Assembly: GCA_964016885.1 (NCBI GenBank) | Contig: OZ024743.1 | Coordinates: 55,180,001-55,244,000 of the forward strand | Source: Eledone cirrhosa | Taxonomy: Eukaryota | Reading direction: 5' to 3' | DNA length: 64,000 nt | In this document: in pieces, positions 1,600 to 59,935 of the stretch | Position numbering within the stretch: the first letter of the stretch is position 1 | Layout of the letters: every line of letters begins with the position of its first letter | Translations under genes and position numbers: made by a program | Notes under the pieces: generated by a model | Database searches by the model: none | Told to the model about the DNA's origin: nothing | Seen by the model: only the letters and a program-made list of their open reading frames with translations

Positions 1600-2320
1600 A
1601 TATATATATATATATCCCTAATCAACAATGGATTCCAACGTGCCCTAAAACTAGACATCCAGGAACTCAGACACCCGAAACCCAGGAATGAACCGCAACA
1701 GAAAACTCTACCATATATCTCCACACACAACCTCCCCAACAATGAGGCATTCGATACCATCCTCCAGAACTAAAAAGAGACCCAAGAATGAACAAAATCC
1801 TCCAAACACACAACATCATAAAGAGCAAAAGACAACCTAAATCCATAAAAAACATCCTCACACAAGCCAAAATCCAACAAACCCTCACAATGAACCCTAC
1901 AGTAACAAAATGCGGAAGGCCCAACTGTGGCATATGCATAAATCTAATAGAAGGTTCAACATTCCATTTTAAACAAGGACAACATTTCACAGTTAAACAC
2001 AACTTTAAATGCGCATCTGAAAACCTAATCTATGTTTTGACCTGTTCAGGTTGTCAAGAGCACTATATAGGGCAGATAAAAAACAGCCTCCGACAACGTA
2101 TGACCGTCCATAAATCACAAATCAAAATACAGAAATAGAGAAAGATTGCGTTTAGTGAACATATCACCAATTGTGCACCCAACCAACATCCAAACTTTAA
2201 AATTTTCCCCATTTACAAATTCAGAGACAACGCTACTTTCATCCATCGTACCAATAAGGAAACGTACTTCATTAACAAATCCCAACTTCTACTTAATGCA
2301 CTAAACTTCGGACTAAATTA
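1600..2320 (+). pseudogene. Penelope-like element remnant: CX4CX2C linker plus GIY-YIG endonuclease (Neptune-like)
   Basis: ORF 1788-2138 has KCGRPNCGIC, NLIYVLTC..C..HYIGQ and LRQRMTVHKSQI. The frame continues past the TAG as RKIAFSEHITNC..KETYFINK. Confidence 0.85.
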
Positions 2321-7384: not shown

Positions 7385-7794
7385 CAAGAAAGTAGTAGAG
7401 CATAATCGAAGCTCTGGTTGCGGGCAAGCTAACGAATGCTGTCGGGAAGTGCAGCCAAAAGCACCCAATACCTTAGAGTATTACATTACGTTTAGCCAGC
7501 TATGCAAATTGAAGCCAGTGACCGAAAAGGGAGCTGCTAGGACCAGAACAACGAAAAAACCGACTCAGGGAAAAGTTAATATAGAAATGGCTTCTACAGG
7601 ACTAGAACTGTTTCATTCGGGAGAAATCATCAGGCAGCCGACTGTCCAAGTAATATTGTGGTATTTATACCTTTTCTAGTGGTAGGCGAGGGTGGTGATT
7701 GGGATGGGTGAAGGTCATTGGTTGATGGATATAAAGAAAAACCTCGTGCCTCGTCCTCGTCAGCAGGGTTCTTCAAAACACAACAGAACCGTCT

Positions 7795-8685
7795 GTGTTC
7801 AGAGAACGTGATGCCGCATGTGAGACGTGGGACCGGCTGGGACTTAGCCCAGTAGACGTCCCTCCTCCTTCTACCCCTGTTGACGTCAAGTCTCCACAAC
7901 GCACTTGGGATGCCATCCAGTGCAGCCTGGCCTCAGACAGGCTCACGCGCCAGCTCGACCAGCACCGCTTTGCTTGTTTTCGTGCGGCCTCCAAACCTCA
8001 CAGTGGTGCCTGGCTCCATGCCCTGCCCTCCTCTACTGGCACGCAGCTAGACAATCATAGTCTGCGCATCGGCGTTTCCCTGAGGCTCGGCCTCCGGAAC
8101 TGCCAGCCACACCAATGTCGCTGCGGTTCCACCGTGGACCTTTTCGGCCTCCACCAACTTTCCTGTCGCCATAGTGCCGGCCGCATTCCATGCCATGCTG
8201 CCCTCAACGAGGTCATTAAGCATGGCTTGGGCGCTGCAGGTTTCCCTTCCCAGCTCGAGCCGGTGGGGCTGGATCGAGGGGACGGCAAAAGGCCAGATGG
8301 CATGACCATCTTCCCGTTCCGCGGTGGCAAACCCCTCGTCTGGGATGCCACTTGCACCGACACTTTCTGCAGCCGCAACCTGGTGCAGTTTGCGACTGAC
8401 CCAGGTTGTGCTGCACGTCGGACTGAGGGGACCAAACTCCTCAAATATCGGTCGCTCTCTGACAGGTTTGAGATCGTACCCCTGGCAGTGGAGACTTCTG
8501 GTGTCCTCGGCCCCAGGGCTACCTCCTTACACACCACCATAGGCGCTGAGTTGGCCAGCCGGAGGTATGAGCCCCGCGAGTTGGAGTGGCTTTTCCAGCG
8601 CGTCTCTCTTGCCGTCCTCCTGGGAAACGCCTTCTCCATTCTGTCCGCCGGGGCTGTGGGTGGGCCCCATCGCGTAACGTTGTAG
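7795..8685 (+). mobile_element. 5'-truncated CRE-clade non-LTR retrotransposon (zinc knuckle plus restriction-like endonuclease)
   Basis: SGAWLHALP, LRLGL, CRCG..HQLSC, HAALN, KRPDG..WDATC, KLLKY, PLAVETSG and LFQRVSLAV..GNA motifs; GC-rich island ending in a short (GTT/GTA) tail. Confidence 0.85.
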
Positions 8686-9299
8686 TTGTTGTAGAAGAAA
8701 CAGGAAGACAACAACTGGGAAGTTTGATTTTCTACTTAATATGTTGTCTTCATCTGTCAGTTCCTTTCCTTTCTCCTAAACACTAATTACTGGCCACTCA
8801 TACCAATAATAAGGTATTGTTCTCAAAATAAATAACATCAAAATCTCGTAGATTCAATGTCATGTGAGATAAAGCCTTTACTGTGAAAATGCAATAGTAA
8901 ATATAGAGTAATGTAAACGGTAAACGATAAACCTCTTTAGAGTAACAAAGGCAGGAAAAATTCAAGCTCCTGATTTGTAAGGTTCATTTAAGCTAACAAT
9001 GGCTATTCAATTGGTAGCTCTGTCGAAATGGTCAGGTGTCTTCAATCACACAAGTACACACACATACCCTAACACCCACACACACGCACACGTAGAAACA
9101 CAGAGTTATATACACACATATATATATATATATACACACACACACATATAATATATATACGTATATATATATATATATATACATACACATACATACACTT
9201 GTTTATATATGTTCTGGCTCGTTAATTTATTAACCTGCCATTGAACCACATTGGCATTTGTTTGGACAATACATGCGTCCCTTAGCGCCTTGTGCGTGA

Positions 9300-9690
9300 A
9301 GGAACACATATCCTATTATTACTATCTCCTCTATTGTTGAGAAAAAATTTGGTCGTTCCGACTGCTGCTAGTGATAGTGGCGGCCAATTTGACCTACCTC
9401 CCTCTGCCTCTATCTTTACTTCGGCCCTTGAAAAAATTGATTCCACTTCATTCACTCTCATCTCGGGAACAGTTTGGGATAACGCTAGTTCGTAATTTAA
9501 ATTCAAGAATTTTATATTCTTCGAATGAAAAGAACCTTCTGACGAGAATCTTTCTTTGCAACGAAGGCCGTATGGTCTCCGTTTATTTTTGGGATTCGAA
9601 ACCGATCGGTAAAGGTAACTATAGTAGGTAAAGTCAATTTTTTAAAATTTATTTTGAAACTTTTTCATTATTTGCTAAACCTTGTTTATA
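9300..9690 (+). mobile_element. ORF-less HHR-bearing element (family B), copy 1
   Basis: Collinear, diverged homology to 58460-58840 over about 350-400 nt; both copies end at (TA)n. Confidence 0.7.
9534..9616 (+). ncRNA. Type I hammerhead ribozyme, family B
   Basis: ACCTT-CTGACGA-GAATC..GATTC-GAAA-CCGATCGG-TA-AAGGT: all three stems and a canonical core, GUA triplet, palindromic stem III. Confidence 0.88.
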
Positions 9691-9951
9691 CATACAGATA
9701 TATATATATATGTGTGGGAAGGACCGTCTTTAGGAAGGCCAATCAAGCCTGAAAGGCATAGATGTTTTTCCCCCTTGCTTCTGCTGGACACCACCAGAGG
9801 GCATTAGCCCAGGTGTTTGCATAGCTACGGCTTCCTAAAACCGTGTTTCTTTAGAAATACGAAATTTATATGTATATATAGATAGATATATCCAGGGAGT
9901 GTAACGCGTAGTTATGGTAGGTTGACTCGGGTGAGCACTCGATTTTTATAT

Positions 9952-16281: not shown

Positions 16282-16359
<78 letters not shown>

Positions 16360-16365
<6 letters not shown>

Positions 16366-19328
16366 TAAAATAACAGATTAAAGTTTAAGCAAAGAATCGC
16401 TGCTTTCACCCTTAACAGGATCTTCTGAAACTAACAAAGTCAATCTGTAAACGCAGAAGTGGATATTTCAAAAAACGTTGCAACCGGAGGAAGACAGGAA
16501 GACGATACTTTGGTTCGTGGAAACGTTCGCTATGCAAATAAGTAATGGTATAAACAAAACATACTTAGCTCCCACATCAAGACGTAAAATATCCATGTAT
16601 AAATCGTACTATCCGTTAGGGTATAACGTGGGGCTGTAATACAGGAAAGTTTTGTGCAATTTATGTTTACAAGCCGAAATTGCCTCAGATTTTTTGTTTA
16701 AGATGTGGTCTGTGGCGTAGAGTATTTCCAGGGCCTCAGCGTCGCAGAGGTCACATGGTCTTTTATTTCCGTTATACGATCTAGCCCTAGCTAGGATCTC
16801 CTAGAGTAACTTATATTGGGTGTGGTTGTCTTTTAGACTCCAGATATAAGTTGAAAGTGACGTCATATTCCTTCTTAGAGGGTAACCAAAAGAATGGGTA
16901 TGCATGTAAAGACGCTGCTTGAATCTATTGGCGGTTAACCCTATGTAGGCCCTACGGGACGTGGGTGTTACAACCTTACATTTGTAGACAATGTTACTAG
17001 AGAGGCATTTCCTGGATAGGGGACAATCAACCCGATTCCTACAATTACAGTTAGTACTAACTACAGGGTTGCACGTGTTCCTACGGCCAGGTAGTTTAGC
17101 TAAATTTGAAGCTGTGATGTTATGTGCAAGGTTAGGAGTCGTAGAGTAAGACATTTTAATAGTATTTCTATTAAAAATGTTACTATACTTATGTGTAGGG
17201 GAAAATGCTTCGTAATAAAGGAAAGAAAGATCTTAGCTAATGGTGTGGTCACCTCCATATTATATGGTGGGTTATACCAACAAATGCGACGGGATCTATT
17301 TCTTCTAGGTCTATTTTCGTACTCTGTATATGCTACCTTATCGACAAATCCAATTCGAGCAAGAGCTTCATTGTAATAAGTGGAATGGTCGTTGAAAATA
17401 CGCTCGTTGGTGGAAAGACGGGAAAGCCTCAACGAAACGTTTCTTACCAGGTTCTTGGTTATGCTGGCAGGATGGTTGGAATGCTTACTTATGTAATTAA
17501 GTGTATCATTCGGCTTTCTATACGGGTAATACAACCCATTCAATAAATTGAGGGTAACGTCGAGGTAATTAACGACCGAGAGATTGGCCTCAACCTGTAT
17601 AGAGAGGTTGAAGCCTTTAAAGAAGGCTGTGAGTTCTTTTCTGAATCTGTCGCAAGCACGAGGTCCGCACTTAGTCATGGTCAAAAGACCATCGTCACGG
17701 TACAAACCACCGCCCGCGTTGGGGAATTCGTCCTTGATAGAGAAAAGAAGGAAAAGGCCGATAAGATCAGTAACCTCCGCAGAATCACTGGCGCCCATAC
17801 TCACGTGGAATGGGGGTACTATTGGATTTTTTAATCCAAATAGAGTCGTCGAAATTAATCACCAACTTTCGGGCATTGAGGATGACATCAACTTCGAAAT
17901 CCTTAACCCATGTGAGTGTTTTAGCGAAATTGATAGCTCTAAGGAGAAGTGGTAAAGTGATGGAGGAGTAGTAATTGTTGATGTCGAATTGGATAAAACG
18001 GCAATGTTCCTTGTTACATATGCCGTTGAACCAATCAATCACCGCGAAAGAATTGTTCCACAGTGCAAGAGGGGCCAAACTTCTAATTTCTGGTATAATT
18101 CTATCAAGAATCGTTTTACTAAGTCTACCTAAATCGGACTTCGTAGGGTTAATAACCCGAATAGAGGGCTTGTTCGGAAAATTGGATTTGTGATCCTTCA
18201 GGGTAAAGTGGGGAGAAATAGGGTCCAGAGGTTCGGTCCGGTCCAGGATGTTGAGATCAGATGTGATTTTAAACCCAGCATCGTTGATTTCATTGATGAC
18301 GCACCGATTAGTTTTACGGTAATCCTTAGTTACAGCAATATATAGTAGTTGATGGTAAGTACTGCACTCCACTTGATATAGGTTGCCAGTTTTGTCGGAA
18401 TGGACGTGCACGGCATTAGAATCCTTAATAGAACGAATTCTATTCAGGTTTTGCTGGAAGGAATTGCTCCTATTCCGAAATTTGATACTCCGAATGAGTT
18501 CCAAAACATCATTTTCGAAGGGTAGCAATGCTGGGTTACACGGGGGGTTATTATAGCTTTTAAATCCAAATTTATCCTGTTTGTTGTCTGCTTTTCGCGG
18601 ATTATCGAAATAAAAGGTACGCCAACGCAACCTTTTAATGAACGCGTCTGTTTTCTGTATCAGGAGTTGTAGACATGTCTTCCTGCTTGGTACGGGTATG
18701 TTCTTTGTAGAAATATTCAGATGTTGTTTCTGCATGATGAATATAAGTCAGTAGAGTGCTCAACCGAGGGAGCCAAATAGTAATAATAATAAATTTGAAG
18801 ACAAAAATCCAAAGAGGGCTCGATAAGGATAAATATATATCAAATATATAAGAACCGTAGAGCAAATATTTATTAAAATAACAGATTAAAGTTTAAGCAA
18901 AGAATCGCTGCTTTCACCCTTAACGGGATCTTCTGAAACTAACAAAGTCAATCTGTGAACGCAGAAGTGGATATTTCAAAAAACGTTGCAACCGGAGGAA
19001 GACAGGAAGACGATACTTTGGTTCGTGGAAACGTTCGCTATGCAAATAAGTAGTGGTATAAACAAAACATACTTAGCTCCCACATCAAGACGTAAAATAT
19101 CCGCGTATAAATCGTACTATCCGTTAGGGTATAACGTGGGGCTGTAATACAGGAAAGTTTTGTGCAATTTATGTTTACAAGCCGAAATTGCCTCAGATTT
19201 TTTGTTTAAGATGTGGTCTGTGGCGTAGAGTATTTCCAGGGCCTCAGCGGCGCAGAGGTCACATGGTCTTATATTTCCGTTATACGATCTAGCCCTCTTT
19301 CGATTTTAGTCTTCAAATTTATTATTAT

Positions 19329-26109: not shown

Positions 26110-27200
26110 ACTTTGATAACTTTGATAGGTTTCGGCCAGTATTGGCCCAGGCCATGTCTAACTTAATAACACCACCTGGCGAAGTCTTACAAATCAGCGT
26201 TTGGGCACCATGGCCCACTCGAGCAGAGAGTTATTGTTTACGGAGGCATATCCGGGTGTAGGAGGCTTATCCGGGATTTCTTGAAGGAATTTATCCAAAG
26301 ACTTCTTCAACTTGATGGGGTCTGTCTCTGCTTTGATGTGTTTTGGTGTAATGTTAAAGAGGGCAGGGCCAATTGAGGTGAAATAATTCTGCCGTATTGT
26401 TGTTATGTGATGTGAGTAGAATTTTTGTCGTGGGCGGATAGCTCGGGGCCCAAGTCTTGGGTGTACACTAAAGGTGATGCCAACATTATTTGGGCTAAGC
26501 TGATGGAATATTTTCCACATCATACAGATAATGTAGCGCTCACGGCGACGTTGAAGAGAAGAAAGTTTGAGCTTTTCTAATAAACCCCAATAGTCAAGGC
26601 CTGTCATGCCAACTATCTTTTTTGTAATTGACCTTTTGGGTGCTTCAACTGTCATGATACTTTGTTTCGTGTGGGGTGACCACAGTGGGTCGGGCAAAAG
26701 TGGAGAAGAGAAGGACAACAGTGTGGATATGTCTCGACTGGAAAGTTCTGAGAATGCAGGAACACATTCTGTGGGCCATATCAACTTTGCTGTTTATATG
26801 AGTGGCCCAGCTTATATTGTTGTCCACAATTACTCTCAGATCTCTGATGTTATTGGAAGCCACTAGAGTTTCACCCGAAGGAAGAGAGTATGGTAGTTTC
26901 AGGGAATCCTTTTTTCCGAAGTGGATTAGTTCAAATTTATCCTCATTCAACAGCATATTATTCATCTCTGCCCATTGGATAACAGCCAGTAGGTCTGACT
27001 GCAGGCAAGTCCGGTCACCCACCTCATTGATGCCCCTTTGAAGCTTGCAATCATCTGCGAAAATTCTGATGTTACTGTGTTTGATGATGTCAGTAATGTC
27101 ATTAATGTAGATGATGAAAAGAAGTGGGCCCAACACAGTTCATTGGGACGCCACTGCGGACTTTAGCAGGGCTTAATGTTACTTTTTCGACTACCAATAC
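26110..27200 (-). mobile_element. 5'-truncated CR1-group LINE (RT C-terminal half)
   Basis: [65 protein letters not shown] and LDKFLQEIPDKP..NSLLEW; frameshifted; short tandem-repeat tail near 26107-26127. Confidence 0.9.
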
Positions 27201-46145: not shown

Positions 46146-46263
<118 letters not shown>

Positions 46264-46399
46264 CAGAAGGGATATTGAATTTTTTGGTAATTCAACGAAT
46301 ATAAATGTTTATAACTGATTCAGAGCACTCGACAAGTTTTCTGGAGTATAATATTCAATGATATTAAATAAATGGAAACTATATTTATAAAACCATATT

Positions 46400-46460
46400 T
46401 ATTCTATTATATATATTTCAAGGGTACCAAAACTTTGGTACGCTTTCATCAGATAAAATA
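46400..46460 (-). ncRNA. Type I hammerhead ribozyme, family A
   Basis: TATTTTAT-CTGATGA-aag-c-gtaccaaa-gt-tttggtac-c-ctt-GAAA-TATATA-TA-ATAGAATA. Confidence 0.82.
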
Positions 46461-46814
46461 CGAAGTGTGTTTTATACATTTTGACATAACCAAGAAAAAT
46501 ACATTAACGGTTCAAGTTTTCCTTGGATAGTGAAGGGATAAGAGAAGAAAAGTCAGATATTTCAAATTATTAAAATGAGTATGCAAATGAGGTTGAGGTA
46601 AAAGTCTGAAAAAACGTTATTTTAGACGCTATGGAGAATTTCAATAATTATGATATGTGTATGTATGCGTAGGAAAGAAGAAGAAAGAAAGGCTTGCATT
46701 TATGTTAACTTTTTGGGGGGGGAGGGGTATGATTCCAGAGTTTAAATTTAAGTTTATTTACCTATATTATGAGTTATAATATTGTATATATAATCAATTA
46801 GATTATATGAAGAA

Positions 46815-47827
46815 GTATCCTTCCATAAAATTAACGAAAATCTAAATTATGTAAGTTTCAATTCTAATCGGCCAAGAACACTATTGTCAATAGCGTCCAA
46901 CAAGGAATTTCATGCATCTCTGCTAATAAAAATATTTTTGATGATAAAGCTGAATATTATAATGAAGCTTTACATAGAGCAGGATACTCGAATAAAATTA
47001 AATACATAGATAACTATTGCATGACAAATCATTCTAGAAATAATTATAATAATAATAAACAATTTAACTTAAACACTAAACCAAACAAACAAACTAGAAC
47101 TAGAAATATTATTTGGTACTCTCCTCCATTCTCATTAAGCGTTAAAACACCTTTAGAAAAGCTATTCTTTAAAGCACTAGGTAAATGTTTTCCTAAAGCC
47201 CACAAATACCACTCTATTTTTAACAGACACACTATAAAACTATCCTACTCAACTACTATGAACATAGCACAAAATATAAATAGAATTAATAATAGAAACT
47301 TAAATTTAATCCCTAACCAAACTAACCAAAATAGCAATAATAATATTTCTAACAACAATATTCAGAATAATAGTAACGTTCCGAACAACAACTCCAGAAA
47401 ATGTAACTGTAGGATCAAATCAAACTGCCCTTTACAAAATAATTGTTTAGACAAAAACGTAGTTTATAAATTCACAGTTAAAACTAGAGACAAATTATTT
47501 ATCTATATTGGTGCCACTTCAACAAAATTCAAAGAACGCTGGAATAACCATAAAAACATTAAGAGATCCGATAAAAAATCTTCTACTTCACTTTCACATT
47601 TAATTTGGAACTTAAAAGACAACAATATAGACTATTCAATATCTCGGAGAACAATTTCGAAAGCGCCTGCATACCGAAATATGGCTTTCTCAAGATTCTG
47701 TAACTTGTGTATCGAAAACATTTTTTATATAATTAACTGTCAAAACTCTATTAATCTTAGAACAGAATTATTTTCTTCTTGCAGACATCGCCAAAATTCC
47801 ACGTTCAGAACTATGTTTAATTTATAA
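46815..47827 (+). pseudogene. PLE RT thumb, CxCx5CP linker and GIY-YIG endonuclease (5'-truncated)
   Basis: RNIIWYSPPFS..VKT, HKYHSIFNRHTIKLSYSTTMN, KCNCRIKSNCPLQNNC, NVVYKF..YIGAT..FKERWNNH and CNLCIE..NLRTELFSSCRH. Confidence 0.88.
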
Positions 47828-49165
47828 TATTTCTATACACCTTCAAAATGATCCTATCTTCTTCAAAAATTTAAATGTAAATTTTTTTTTAAATTTTAAT
47901 ATTTTTAATATTTTTAATATTTTTAATATTTTTAATATTTTTAATACTTCTATTTTTTTTAAATATTTCTAATATTTTTACCTTTTGACATTAATCTTTT
48001 TAATATATATATTTTTTAATATTTTTAATTCTGACATTATTTTCCTAATGACACCCCTCTAAATATAATTTTTTTTAGATGTAGATTGATAATCGTTAAT
48101 TGACATTCTGAAAATTTATCCTCTTTACGATAGTTCTTCAAAATGCACATTACGTTTTACCTCTCTTTTTGATATTTAAACTTTCACACATCTTTCGACT
48201 AAAATAATTAATCTCCCACAAAATAATATATAATTTTCTCTATATATTTTCTGAGTTAATCACTCATCAAATTTAACGGTTAACAAACAAAATTGGAGTT
48301 ATCTTTCCTTTCTCAATCGTGCAAACATAAACATATTATGTACGATAATCTATATAACTTCGCTAAATTAACAATATTCTGAAAACATTTTCAATGTTGA
48401 ACAAAATATTCGAATCTTCAAATTGTTCTCCTCTCACAACTTGAACCACCTATTTGTTATGTAAAATACAAAATCAACGTCCTTCGTAACTCATATTAGA
48501 AATATAAACAACTAATAATTGTAAATTATTTCTATTTCTATAATACTAATATATGCACAATTATTAATTTATATAGATATTTATAACTAGAAATTGATTG
48601 ACATATATATATATATATCTAAATAAACATGAAACAATCACAGGGAATAATTTATAAAAGTATGTAAGCACACACAGCCAGGTTGGTAACTAATTAAATT
48701 TTAACTAGAACTTCAAAAACAGTGGATATGGCGCATGTCTCTCTGACATGACACCCTTAATTTAATTTTGGATATATACACGGCTCCTTAATTGTAGAGC
48801 TAACTCAGTTGAAAGGACTCGGCTGCTATTTCTAGTTGTCGATAACCCTATTCACGCTACTGGGATGAAGTTTGTACGATGTGTGTATTTTTGAAAAATG
48901 CAACACGTGCTGCTAGTCATTTGCAGATTTGAATTTGATGTGTAAACACAGATAGTTAGATCTTCTCCCTTGTTGAAAATCCGAGATTTGGCTACTGTGG
49001 TTTACCGATCGATTAATGGTGAAATATATTTCTTTAATGAAATATATACAAGGAAGATTATGGTATCTATTTATGAAGTTCTAGTTAAACTTTAATTAGT
49101 TACCTACCTGGCTATGTGTGCTTACACACTTTTACAAATTATTCCTTGTGATCATTTCATATGTT

Positions 49166-49214
<49 letters not shown>

Positions 49215-49911
49215 AATCAATTTCTAGTTGATATAAAATGCTCGGATCTATTCATTGGAATCTTGGAGCATATTCTACGGTGGATATGGCGCATGTCTCT
49301 CTGACATGACACTCTTAATTTGATTTTGGATATATAGATATTATTATCTCCATGCTTTGACGCATAGAGTTACGGCCCTTGCCATTCTGAGTTCAAATCC
49401 AGCCGATGTTAACTTTGCCTTTCATCCTTACGGGGTCGATAAAATAAAGTACCAGTAATGCACTGGGTAATTGCTGGCCTTGTGTCAAACGTAGAAACAA
49501 TTATACATATAACCTATTGTAATGTAATAGGATAAAAATACTTACAACCATAATTCTTCATATAATCTAATTGATTATATATACATATTATAACTCATAA
49601 TATAGGTAAATAAACTTAAATTTAAACTCTGGAATCATATTCCACTTTCCCACCCAAATTAACGTAAATGCAAGCTCTTCTTCCTTCTTCTTCTTTCCTA
49701 CTCATACATACACATATCATAATTATTTTAATTCTCCATAGCGTCTAAAATAACGTTTTTTTTCAGACCTTTACCTCAACCTCATTTGCATGCTCATCTT
49801 AATAATTTGAAATATCTGACTTTTCTTCTCTTATCCCTTCACTATCCAAGGAAAACTTGAACCGTTAATGTATTTTTCTTGGTTATGTCAAAATGTATAA
49901 AACACACTTCG

Positions 49912-49972
49912 TATTTTATCTGATGAAAGCGTACCAAAGTTTTGGTACCCTTGAAATATATATAATAGAATA
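49912..49972 (+). ncRNA. Type I hammerhead ribozyme, family A (sense to the PLE ORF)
   Basis: Mirror copy of 46400-46460. Confidence 0.82.
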
Positions 49973-50194
49973 AATATGGTTTTATAAATATAGTTTCCAT
50001 TTATTTAATTCCATTACTCTTTTACTCTTTTACCTGTTCCAGCCATCCGGCTGAGGCCATGCTGGGGCACCGCCATTGTATATATATATATATATATCAC
50101 AAAGTACAGAGATGGAAATATGTTATCTCAATCCAATTAAACCATAAAGAGATCAATGAACATTAAGGGCTAAATTTTCAGAGCATCATCTACA

Positions 50195-57903: not shown

Positions 57904-58440
57904 CCCTAAAACTCGAGAAGTAGCCAATCGATTTTTTTCAAACTTTACTTATGTTTCAGGGAGTGTTATGCACATAAAAAATTCAACTTTTCATCTCCTA
58001 GAGCCCGTATTAGGGAAAAAATTGCATTTTTTAAGCTTTTTAGGGGTTTTTTGAGGCGTTACGTCAGACCGATTTCATTGAAATTGTAACTATGTATTAG
58101 TCAGTCTCTTCTTGATATTGTGAGCAAAGAAAATCCAACTTTTTTATGGCCTAGGTGAAAAACTTCATTTTTTCAGCTTTTTGGGGCTTTTTGGAGGAGT
58201 TATGTCTAGCCGATTTTCCGGAAATTTCAAGGCATATTATGCACATAAACAAAATATATTTTATGATCCTCTAGGTGAAAACCTGCATTTTTCCTGTTTC
58301 ATCGAGGAAAATCTTAAAGTTTATCCAGCCATCAGATTGTTCGGTTTATTTTCTTTACATATTGCCCAGACATGCAGTTTTCCCACGATTATGTCTGTTG
58401 GCGGCCCGCGTTCCAAAATACCTTATCCCGTGCAATGTAT
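57541..58440 (+). mobile_element. Non-autonomous Helitron-like element
   Basis: TCTATATATATAAAACTG start directly after CTAG; homologous to 947-1240; internal duplication 57557-57710 / 57836-58015. Confidence 0.65.
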
Positions 58441-58683
58441 ATATATGTGTGTATATACTTTATTATTATTAATCTCCCCTAAGTTTGAGATAACATTTTG
58501 GTCGTTTGAACTGCTGCTATTTCTAGTGGCAGGACATTGACCAGTCCGCCCCTGCCTTCTGGCTTTACACACGGCACTAGACAACATTTTTTCCATCCTC
58601 ATTCACTCTCATCCGGGAACGGTTTCGTATTGCGCCAGTTTGTGATTTGAACTTGGGAATTTTATATTCTCCGAGCGAGAAGA

Positions 58684-58767
58684 ACCTTCTGACGAGAATC
58701 CTCTTCTCAATGGTGGTCCGTCTGGATTAACCATTTATTTTGGGATTTGAAACCGCGCGGTAAAGGT
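58684..58767 (+). ncRNA. Type I hammerhead ribozyme, family B, copy 2
   Basis: ACCTT-CTGACGA-GAATCC..GGATTT-GAAA-CCGCGCGG-TA-AAGGT. Confidence 0.88.
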
Positions 58768-58923
58768 ACATATAGTAAGTACAGCGAACTTTTAAAAATT
58801 TATTTTAAAACTTTTTCTCTATTTGCTAAACCTTGATTTTATATATATATATATATATATACCCTAAGTATTGAGTACTCTGGTGTGTTATGGTCCATCT
58901 GCTTCCTTAGCACACCTCCTTCG

Positions 58924-59144: not shown

Positions 59145-59908
59145 GGAGTCTAATGCACTTAACCATCCTTTTCTGCCACGCTTCCGGGATTCTCCGCAGT
59201 TCCGTCGTCACGGCCTTTTTGATGTCGTCCACGTCTTCAAAACGGGTCCCCTGCGGGTCGTACTCGAAGATCCATGACTCATCACCAGTGATGGCTGTCC
59301 CTAGCAAGTCTGGTTCGGTTTCAAGACGCTCGAGGATGTCCTGGCAACTTGCATGCGTCGACCCTTCTGGTCATCGTTCAGCTGTTTTGCCACCATCATC
59401 GCGCAGATTTACCGCATGTCCAAATCTTCAGTGAGAATCTTCCAGACGCTGTCCCGATTCATGCCCAGCTCATTTGCCATCAGTCGAACAGTCAGCCGAC
59501 GATCGCTACGCACCATCTGCCTGACGCGCTCAACGTTGACCTCAGTCCTGGTTGTTGAGGGCCTTCCGCTTCTGGGGTCATCTTGCACCACACAAAAACA
59601 CGTGAGCGTGACATCGTCCCATCTCCATACACTTGCTGCAGCAATCCCAGTGCTTCTGACGGAGTTTTCCCCAACCGTACCAGAAACTTCAAGTTTGTTC
59701 GTTGCTCTGTGCTCATTGCTTGACGGCCTGAAACAGAAGAGATGTATATAAAATTATGAAGAAAAAAGTTTGATAGCTGCAGAGAGCTAAGATTGCAGTT
59801 AGATACTCCAGGGGGATTACTTTGAAGGAGAAAACTCTTAGTGTGAAGTTTGGGTTTGAAATAAATCTTTTGTGACATCAGTCCTGGAACTTTTCTGACA
59901 CACCACGT
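59145..59908 (-). mobile_element. Mariner (Tc1/mariner) transposon remnant
   Basis: MSTEQRTNLKFLVRLGKTPSEA..VYGDGTMSRSRVFVW and DDPRSGRPST..DRRLTVR..ELG..ILTEDL; TIR-like TA|CGTGGTGTGTCAGAAAAGTTCCAGGACTG at the 59908 end; frameshifts and deletions. Confidence 0.88.
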
Positions 59909-59935
59909 ATATATATCTCTCTATATATATATCTA

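What the first reader, a model, noticed from the sequence alone, without database searches (positions are those of the whole stretch)
9300..9690. ORF-less family B element (second copy 58460-58840) with compensatory changes that keep the HHR stem III palindromic
Seen: the two copies are clearly diverged, yet stem I (ACCTT/AAGGT) and the core are identical. Stem III changes from ACCGATCGGT to ACCGCGCGGT, and both are perfect palindromes. The long stem II extension differs in sequence but folds in both copies: aacg-a-aggcc-gtat-ggtct-c-cgtt versus aatggt-g-gtcc-gtct-ggat-ta-accatt. Inference: this is selection on RNA structure and on self-complementarity for dimer cleavage. No parent ORF is present in the window, so it is a retrozyme-like candidate.
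Basis: partly seen in the sequence, partly recalled or inferred. Interest (0 to 1): 0.8.

Follow-up and report, generated by a model that had tools for sequence, protein, structure and literature searches.

The report
Hammerhead retrozyme riding a Penelope retrotransposon
The two repeats are copies of a 485-base, protein-less mobile unit with a predicted self-cutting RNA motif; thousands of such motifs lie across the genome in TA repeats, and the insertion pattern says it is likely copied by the enzyme of a Penelope-like retrotransposon, probably from a circular RNA, so it is a new member of a known kind of element and a good test case for how such elements spread.

Summary
Observation confirmed; copy 1 is longer than stated (9198-9693). 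Both copies belong to an ORF-less unit of about 480-496 nt with a type I hammerhead: 2,797 exact motif matches genome-wide, at least five subfamilies, dispersed head-to-tail arrays of up to 10 junctions, mostly in (TA)n. It is not a truncated end of an autonomous element. Insertions have variable 5' ends and two fixed 3' ends, 82 and about 188 nt past the predicted cleavage site. Head-to-head two-armed insertions use one of each in 44 of 48 cases. A young, intact Hydra-clade Penelope-like family here does the same (18 of 19), so it is a candidate driver, but no parent with shared sequence was found. Copying runs through the ribozyme junction (279 crossings, 4 stops), which fits a circular or uncleaved template; 6 of 20 long arrays depart from a pure monomer circle. 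Stem III is self-complementary in four perfect variants, but a third of copies carry a centrally interrupted palindrome, so dimer cleavage is plausible, not shown. No RNA evidence. The class (non-LTR retrozymes) is published, and this scan noted other retrozymes before on other DNA.

The parts
9198..9693 (+). Copy 1, subfamily B1: one full permuted unit plus 13 nt (unit positions u70-u485 then u1-u82), single-armed, one hammerhead
   Evidence: (L001): 97-99% to a natural 485-nt array unit
9534..9616 (+). Type I hammerhead: stem I 9534-9538/9612-9616, CUGACGA 9539-9545, long stem II, GAAA 9598-9601, predicted cleavage after 9611
9560..9583 (+). Inner hairpin of the stem II extension
   Evidence: z -2.5; one two-sided change C-G/U-A across subfamilies
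9601..9610 (+). Palindromic stem III ACCGATCGGT
9687..9693 (+). P1: main fixed 3' end (u78-85), TA-like, 82 nt past the cleavage site; inferred reverse-transcription start
   Evidence: 104 of 152 arms end here
9311..9321 (+). P2 sequence (u183-193; class counted as u183-200): second fixed 3' end in other copies; inferred second start site
   Evidence: 41 of 152 arms end at u183-200
9211..9246 (+). Conserved segment between P1 and P2 (hairpin-forming; candidate protein-binding site, inferred)
   Evidence: 31-nt pattern matches 1,954 places, control 0; centroid hairpin, (z only -1.0 to -1.3)
58455..58846 (+). Copy 2, subfamily B2: 5'-truncated (u180-u485, u1-u82), one hammerhead
   Evidence: L031
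58684..58767 (+). Type I hammerhead of copy 2; stem III ACCGCGCGGT 58752-58761; predicted cleavage after 58762
9107..9197 (.). (TA)n-rich target flank 5' of copy 1 (a shorter TA run follows at 9694-9712)
58847..58860 (.). (TA)n target flank 3' of copy 2 (TA/TG run also at 58436-58454)

Best explanation
This is a 485-base non-coding mobile unit present in dispersed tandem arrays in TA repeats, which is likely transcribed from arrays, predicted to be cut to unit length by its hammerhead, probably circularised, and likely copied into new TA sites by the reverse transcriptase-endonuclease of a Hydra-clade Penelope-like element that would start at two fixed internal sites. SHOWN: unit, arrays, five subfamilies, (TA)n flanks, variable 5' ends, two fixed 3' ends (P1 u82, P2 about u188), one of each in head-to-head two-armed insertions, seamless passage through the ribozyme junction, the same two-end rule in an intact young Hydra family (E). 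INFERRED: (1) the enzyme nicks both strands of a (TA)n target and primes one arm at P1 and the other at P2, helped by a few bases of AT complementarity (driver is Hydra-clade about 0.7; family E itself about 0.35); (2) the template is a ligated circle, so one insertion writes several units (about 0.6; otherwise an uncleaved multimer); (3) the palindromic stem III lets two hammerheads in one array transcript pair and cleave, which would restrict cutting to multimers (about 0.55). The two window copies hold one hammerhead each and are likely dead-end products; arrays with two or more hammerheads are the likely sources.
For: Arrays with period 483-485 on many contigs; 22 of 47 position-ordered loci cross two or more junctions, up to 10. 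Within-array identity 97.7-100%, subfamilies 77-100% to the reference. 3' ends P1 104, P2 41, other 7 of 152 arms; TA run follows 130 of 152. Two-armed insertions with both ends at P1 or P2: mixed in 29 of 33 (p 5e-6) and 15 of 15 in a second set chosen away from the ribozyme. Family E: RWK, DKT and CxCX5C motifs, 719-aa open frames, nearest copies 96-98.5% identical in protein, two ends at +31-40 and +111-116, mixed in 18 of 19 two-armed insertions. Contrast: a Neptune-like family ends both arms at one site in 6 of 9 loci with an upstream inverted piece. 279 junction crossings against 4 arms ending within 3 nt of it. In 8 two-armed arrays the partner arm differs from the last unit at 15 sites where neighbouring-unit divergence predicts about 14 (my sum), so arrays look as old as their insertion. 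Four alleles are private to one locus yet in every pass, one in 7 of 7. Published support for the steps: PMC11167929 (two internal starts, both strands cut and extended), PMC7229834 (retrozyme circles).
Against: No RNA, cleavage or circle data. No autonomous parent with shared sequence: B vs E best blastn E 0.05, only a similar hammerhead layout and a TTGTTTAT-like P1; the RT search had 27,262 candidates, 150 scored, so other Hydra families remain. 10 of 31 variable array sites (6 of 20 arrays) are derived alleles shared by some passes only, which a single monomer circle does not give. No pile-up after exactly one round (p 0.33) and only a weak excess of 5' ends near the junction (p 0.054). 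PMC11167929 found hammerhead cleavage dispensable in vitro and priming not homologous to the target. The 2026 preprint saw cleavage in only 1 of 9 tested dimers. The unit folds only modestly well (z -2.25, 3 of 100 shuffles as good). Three two-armed insertions are P1+P1.
Confidence: 0.7

Rival explanations
1. Same non-autonomous Penelope-driven element, but the template is an uncleaved linear multimer transcript and the hammerhead is a weak or regulatory passenger; no circle is needed.
For: Seamless junction passage is equally expected. Six of 20 arrays carry subset-shared alleles. [quoted passage not shown]
Against: Linear copying with 5' truncation can only shorten arrays, yet several subfamilies have long homogeneous arrays and locus-private alleles fill all passes. 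No unit-specific variant recurred at the same pass in different loci. Pairing is kept across five subfamilies.
Confidence: 0.2
2. Units insert singly or as short pieces and the arrays grow afterwards by unequal crossover or gene conversion, like a minisatellite (the route proposed in bioRxiv 10.64898/2026.07.22.740005).
For: Adjacent passes share derived alleles in L009, L019, L104, L121; two arrays (9 and 10 junctions) lie in a heavy tail of the length distribution.
Against: Partner arms and internal units have the same divergence (15 observed, about 14 expected); 21 of 31 variable sites are singletons; arrays are dispersed, short and very young. It may act on top of insertion in a minority of arrays.
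Confidence: 0.08
3. The copies are only truncated 3' ends of an autonomous Penelope-like element, with no life of their own.
For: The ends carry the Penelope 'tail' and inverted-arm signature; the autonomous families were not searched exhaustively.
Against: Complete ORF-less units close on themselves head to tail in arrays. In 179 loci scanned no B arm ran on into a shared PLE body; PLE hits near arms were scattered and of several families. Upstream flanks of 26 arms shared only SINE-like repeats.
Confidence: 0.02

Closest known systems
Metazoan non-LTR retrozymes (Cervera and de la Pena 2020, PMC7229834; Li, Clavereau and Pollet 2026, bioRxiv 10.64898/2026.07.22.740005)
   Same: ORF-less tandem units of a few hundred bases, type I hammerhead in each unit, GC under 50%, no LTR, monomers to multimers, co-occurring autonomous PLEs.
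   Different: 485 nt is above the 150-450 nt of the 2020 paper but inside the 51-972 nt of the preprint. Stem II is extended to about 52 nt. Circular RNA is not shown here. In the parts I read, neither paper maps insertion ends; here two fixed ends and their pairing are counted. Unlike the Xenopus families, no homologous pLTR was found.
EN+ Penelope-like elements, Hydra clade (Craig et al. 2021, PMC8557442); family E of this genome
   Same: (TA)n targets, 5' truncation, head-to-head inverted arms, optional 'tail' on one arm, hammerhead shortly before the 3' end.
   Different: No ORF. Tail about 106 nt, against 30-40 nt in the paper and about 75 nt in family E. No extended DNA similarity to E.
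Poseidon PAc of Anolis (Frangieh et al. 2024, PMC11167929)
   Same: Two internal start sites downstream of the hammerhead define the tail; AT-rich targets.
   Different: PAc start sites were not homologous to the target; P1 and P2 here lie in TAT/ATAT motifs that match (TA)n. The paper saw no strand difference in start site in vitro; here the two arms use different sites.
Non-autonomous Chlamys elements such as MRC1 (PMC8557442)
   Same: Non-autonomous PLE passengers with multicopy head-to-tail insertions.
   Different: Those generally resemble their autonomous family at the 3' end, and most Chlamys lack canonical hammerheads.

Membership tests
Non-LTR retrozyme | [quoted passage not shown] | tested here: met
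   period 480-496, up to 10 junctions
Non-LTR retrozyme | Type I hammerhead motif in each unit (at least two consecutive units) | tested here: met
   by motif and pairing, no Rfam match
Non-LTR retrozyme | No protein-coding capacity | tested here: met
   longest ATG frame 47, 44, 58 aa in three representative units; no PLE protein match below E 0.18
Non-LTR retrozyme | No LTR, primer-binding site or polypurine tract; GC under 50% | tested here: inconclusive
   no LTR structure in the parsed insertions and an AT-rich unit; PBS and PPT were not searched for
Non-LTR retrozyme | Self-cleavage of the RNA | not testable with these tools
   needs an in vitro assay
Non-LTR retrozyme | Expression as linear and circular monomer RNA | not testable with these tools
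   no run on record as RNA was offered
Non-autonomous passenger of an EN+ PLE | 5' truncation, inverted head-to-head arms, tail on one arm | tested here: met
Non-autonomous passenger of an EN+ PLE | Microsatellite target | tested here: met
   TA run 3' of 130 of 152 arms
Non-autonomous passenger of an EN+ PLE | Sequence homology to the pLTR of an autonomous family | tested here: inconclusive
   none to E, N1 or N2 beyond short motifs; other families not reached
Autonomous PLE (truncated copy) | Continues upstream into an RT/GIY-YIG ORF | tested here: not met
Hydra-clade PLE (candidate driver, family E) | RWK, DKT, CxCX5C linker, C-terminal GIY-YIG, hammerhead, (TA)n | tested here: met
   motifs at 44, 121, 562, 601 of L311 against section 11 of PMC8557442; no tree was built
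Dimer-cleaving hammerhead | Short palindromic stem III; cleaves only with a second copy | tested here: inconclusive
   59 perfect, 35 centrally interrupted, 6 broken of 100; B3 ACCGCGGT in 25 of 28; activity untested

The most novel reading that the evidence does not exclude
A dimeric Hydra-clade reverse transcriptase grips one circular retrozyme RNA and primes both strands of a cut (TA)n target at two different, target-complementary sites about 106 nt apart, each subunit rolling round the circle; the hairpin between the sites is the whole hijacking signal, needing no homology to the driver. That would explain in one mechanism the Penelope 'tail', the inverted arms and retrozyme arrays, and give a natural two-part system (intact young driver plus young passenger) to reconstitute.
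Probability: 0.3. Interest if true: 0.75.

Novelty: new member of a known kind. Interest (0 to 1): 0.5.

Why it matters
That animal retrozymes are moved by Penelope-like enzymes from circular RNA has been proposed from co-occurrence and pLTR similarity; the 2026 preprint calls the mechanism unresolved and suggests local amplification for the arrays. This family carries the enzyme's fingerprint in its own insertions (two start sites, one per arm, shared with a Hydra family and not with a Neptune-like one) and its arrays look as old as their insertion. Young passenger copies (up to 100% identical at unlinked loci) and intact driver ORFs in the same genome make the question directly testable. The element class itself is known.

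Tried and rejected
Rfam scan: 0 matches. Pfam on 8 window fragments: 0; on two long ORFs: RVT_1 for N1 only. Sequencing runs: no RNA holder listed; the five runs are of unknown kind and contigs only, so say nothing on expression or circles, and the single contig from organism B is not used. Three pattern hits with 'TCAG' stem III were chance matches inside an abundant SINE-like repeat. A first census was conditioned on the B1/B2 flanks and missed the GA-N-TC, GTAC and GC subfamilies; searches corrected this. Neptune-like N1 as parent: shares a 12-nt motif with P1 (E 0.01-0.17) but it lies upstream of its hammerhead and is not used as an end: rejected. N2: no similarity. Pile-up of 5' ends at the cleavage site: p 0.01 against uniform in the first set, p 0.054 against flanks in the pooled set, 4 exact: not relied on. 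Pile-up after one round: not seen. An apparent excess of changes in the first-copied tail (5 of 1,330 vs 42 of 20,815) is not convincing. Search for the true parent by loose ends in contigs, by patterns and by an old subfamily: none found. Lunse et al. 2017 on dimeric PLE hammerheads was not held; recalled only. Target-site duplications cannot be read inside (TA)n.

Full report
1. Observation. The two copies align at 77.6% over 406 nt. Each holds a type I hammerhead motif with stem I ACCTT/AAGGT, CUGACGA, a 52-53 nt stem II region, GAAA, a palindromic stem III and GUA, cleavage predicted after 9611 and 58762. Rfam finds nothing at gathering thresholds. Copy 1 really spans 9198-9693.

2. The unit. 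The window is C4:55,180,001-55,244,000 of a 3.0-Gb genome. Copy 1 finds 2,083 candidates, 40 scored, many in head-to-tail arrays of period 483-485; copy 2 finds its own older group at 91-94%. Numbering the 485-nt unit from the cleavage site (u1-u485), copy 1 is u70 to u82 across one junction and copy 2 is u180 to u82. Three representative units have no ATG frame over 58 aa and no PLE protein match. Exact patterns give lower bounds of 2,797 hammerheads (control 0) and 1,954 copies of a conserved segment (control 0). At least five subfamilies are defined by stem III: B1 GATC, B2 GCGC, B3 GC, B4 GA-N-TC, B5 GTAC. Several B1 arrays on different contigs are 99.6-100% identical to each other, so the family moved recently.

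3. Structure under selection. On 44 of 131 distinct hammerhead copies, picked by stem III class with an intact core, 93.4% of cells pair against 88.1 +/- 0.4 in shuffles, covariation 0.228 against 0.136, and slid structures fall to 20-62%; but the count of pairs with two-sided change (6 vs 4.9, 129 of 500) is not significant and the control ignores relatedness. Two-sided changes occur in stem II (A-U/G-C/U-A; U-A/C-G), the inner hairpin (C-G/U-A) and the inner stem III pair (A-U/C-G/U-A). B3 changes stem I to GCCTT/AGGGC. Among the first 100 listed motifs (my tally; the pattern fixes CC and GG): GATC 41, GTAC 9, GCGC 8, GC 1 (59 perfect), GATTC 31, GAATC 2, GACTC 2 (35 with one unpaired centre), 6 broken. 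B3 has ACCGCGGT in 25 of 28, a poor monomer stem and a perfect 8-bp duplex, the best hint of dimer action. Against: B4 makes a 4-bp monomer hairpin, derives from GATC by one insertion, and is common; strand-switch mutation can also perfect palindromes (own knowledge). Palindromic stem III is described as typical of metazoan type I hammerheads (PMC4209133, passages).

4. Insertion anatomy. Of 129 loci, 12 duplicates and 3 non-members were dropped, leaving 114. Of 152 arms, 104 end at u78-85 (P1), 41 at u183-200 (P2), 7 elsewhere; 130 are followed by a TA run; 5' ends are spread over the unit. 39 loci are head-to-head two-armed: P1+P2 29, P1+P1 3, P2+P2 1, one arm elsewhere or cut off 6. Among the 33 with both ends classed, 29 mixed gives p 5e-6; the single P2+P2 case (L061) is P1+P2 once a SINE insertion is bridged, and the cut-off case L119 also proved P1+P2. 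A second set of 49 loci chosen by a segment away from the ribozyme gave 20 two-armed loci: 15 P1+P2, 5 with an arm elsewhere, none homotypic. P1 lies in TATATAT and P2 ends in ATAT or TAT motifs, so a few bases may anneal to the nicked target (inference; template and target cannot be told apart in the overlap). A tail on one of two inverted arms is a described Penelope trait (PMC3846280, passages; PMC8557442, passages), and two internal start sites were shown in vitro for a Poseidon element (PMC11167929, main text).

5. Template. Every arm longer than its tail crosses the cleavage junction: 279 crossings in 203 arms, 4 arms stop within 3 nt. So the RNA is religated or uncleaved. In 47 position-ordered loci the longest arm crosses 1 (25), 2 (15), 3 (3), 4 (2), 9 (1) or 10 (1) junctions. 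Arrays are homogeneous, both arms are of the same subfamily (no other locus closer in 16 of 32), partner-arm divergence matches internal divergence (15 vs about 14 in 8 loci), and four locus-private alleles fill all passes. This favours arrays written at insertion from a repeated template. Against a pure monomer circle: 10 of 31 variable sites in 6 of 20 arrays are shared by some passes only, as from multimer templates or later conversion.

6. Driver. Neptune-like N1 and a second family N2 target TA too, but N1 ends both arms at one site (6 of 9) and neither resembles B beyond short motifs. A relaxed hammerhead pattern led to family E, whose 3' ends fall at two sites. E is a 3.6-kb element with open frames of 719 aa, RWK, DKT, CxCX5C and a C-terminal YVG motif, the Hydra-clade marks of PMC8557442 section 11; nearest copies are 96-98.5% identical in protein. 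Its two-armed insertions are P1+P2 in 18 of 19. Its hammerhead has the same layout as B (long stem II, GAAACC..GGTA then AGGTAA), but blastn finds nothing better than E 0.05 and only 150 of 27,262 RT candidates were scored. No B arm continued into a shared PLE body in 179 loci. So: Hydra-type machinery likely, exact partner open.

7. Known and new. Non-LTR retrozymes, their circles and the proposed PLE partner are published (PMC7229834, results and discussion read; bioRxiv 10.64898/2026.07.22.740005, parts 1-3 of 5 read). Seven full-text searches and the parts read showed no count of two start sites and arm pairing in a retrozyme; the library lacks most subscription journals and I saw no supplements, so this is not proof of novelty. 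This scan has noted other retrozymes, and a similar TA-inserted Penelope-type repeat, on other genomes, none on this one.

8. Verdict. A real, well-preserved, recently mobile retrozyme family; new member of a known kind; interest 0.5 because its insertions carry countable mechanistic evidence and a testable driver sits in the same genome. Cleavage, dimerisation, circles and the partner's identity are untested.

Noticed in passing
window 46146-50015; hammerheads at 324(-), 28148(-), 46452(-), 49920(+), 61921(-), 62016(+): Another hammerhead family (stem III TATATA/TATGTA) appears to be the 3' end of a Hydra-like element (ORF piece 46868-47827, CNCRIKSNC linker), here as a two-armed insertion.
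   Followed up: partly
window 16358-19296 (-): [quoted passage not shown]
   Followed up: partly
L130-L159 (window 1746-2138 family, N1): Neptune-like family whose hammerhead core reads UUGAUAA, that is U3-A8 in place of C3-G8, with stem III ACCGGT, in most copies shown.
   Followed up: partly
L033, L043, L044, L056, L061: A B2 sub-lineage carries the same about 180-bp SINE-like insert at u190-200, so the passenger seems to have carried a passenger of its own.
   Followed up: partly
L261:2520-2660 vs L315, L320: One full-length E copy lacks about 165 nt between P1 and the start codon, including P2; possible intron loss or deletion.
   Followed up: no
L202-L230: Further hammerhead families (stem III CC-TTT-GG, CC-ACT-GG) also show two 3' ends, about +37 and +105 past the cleavage site.
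   Followed up: partly
L016 (C18 array): A private allele alternates A-T-A over three passes, as a two-unit circular template would give.
   Followed up: no
window 7735-8685 (+): 316-aa frame that looks like the C-terminal restriction-like endonuclease end of a non-LTR retrotransposon (label recalled; no Pfam match).
   Followed up: no
window 59305-59920 and 26194-27139 (-): Fragments that look like a mariner-type transposase and a LINE reverse transcriptase (labels recalled).
   Followed up: no
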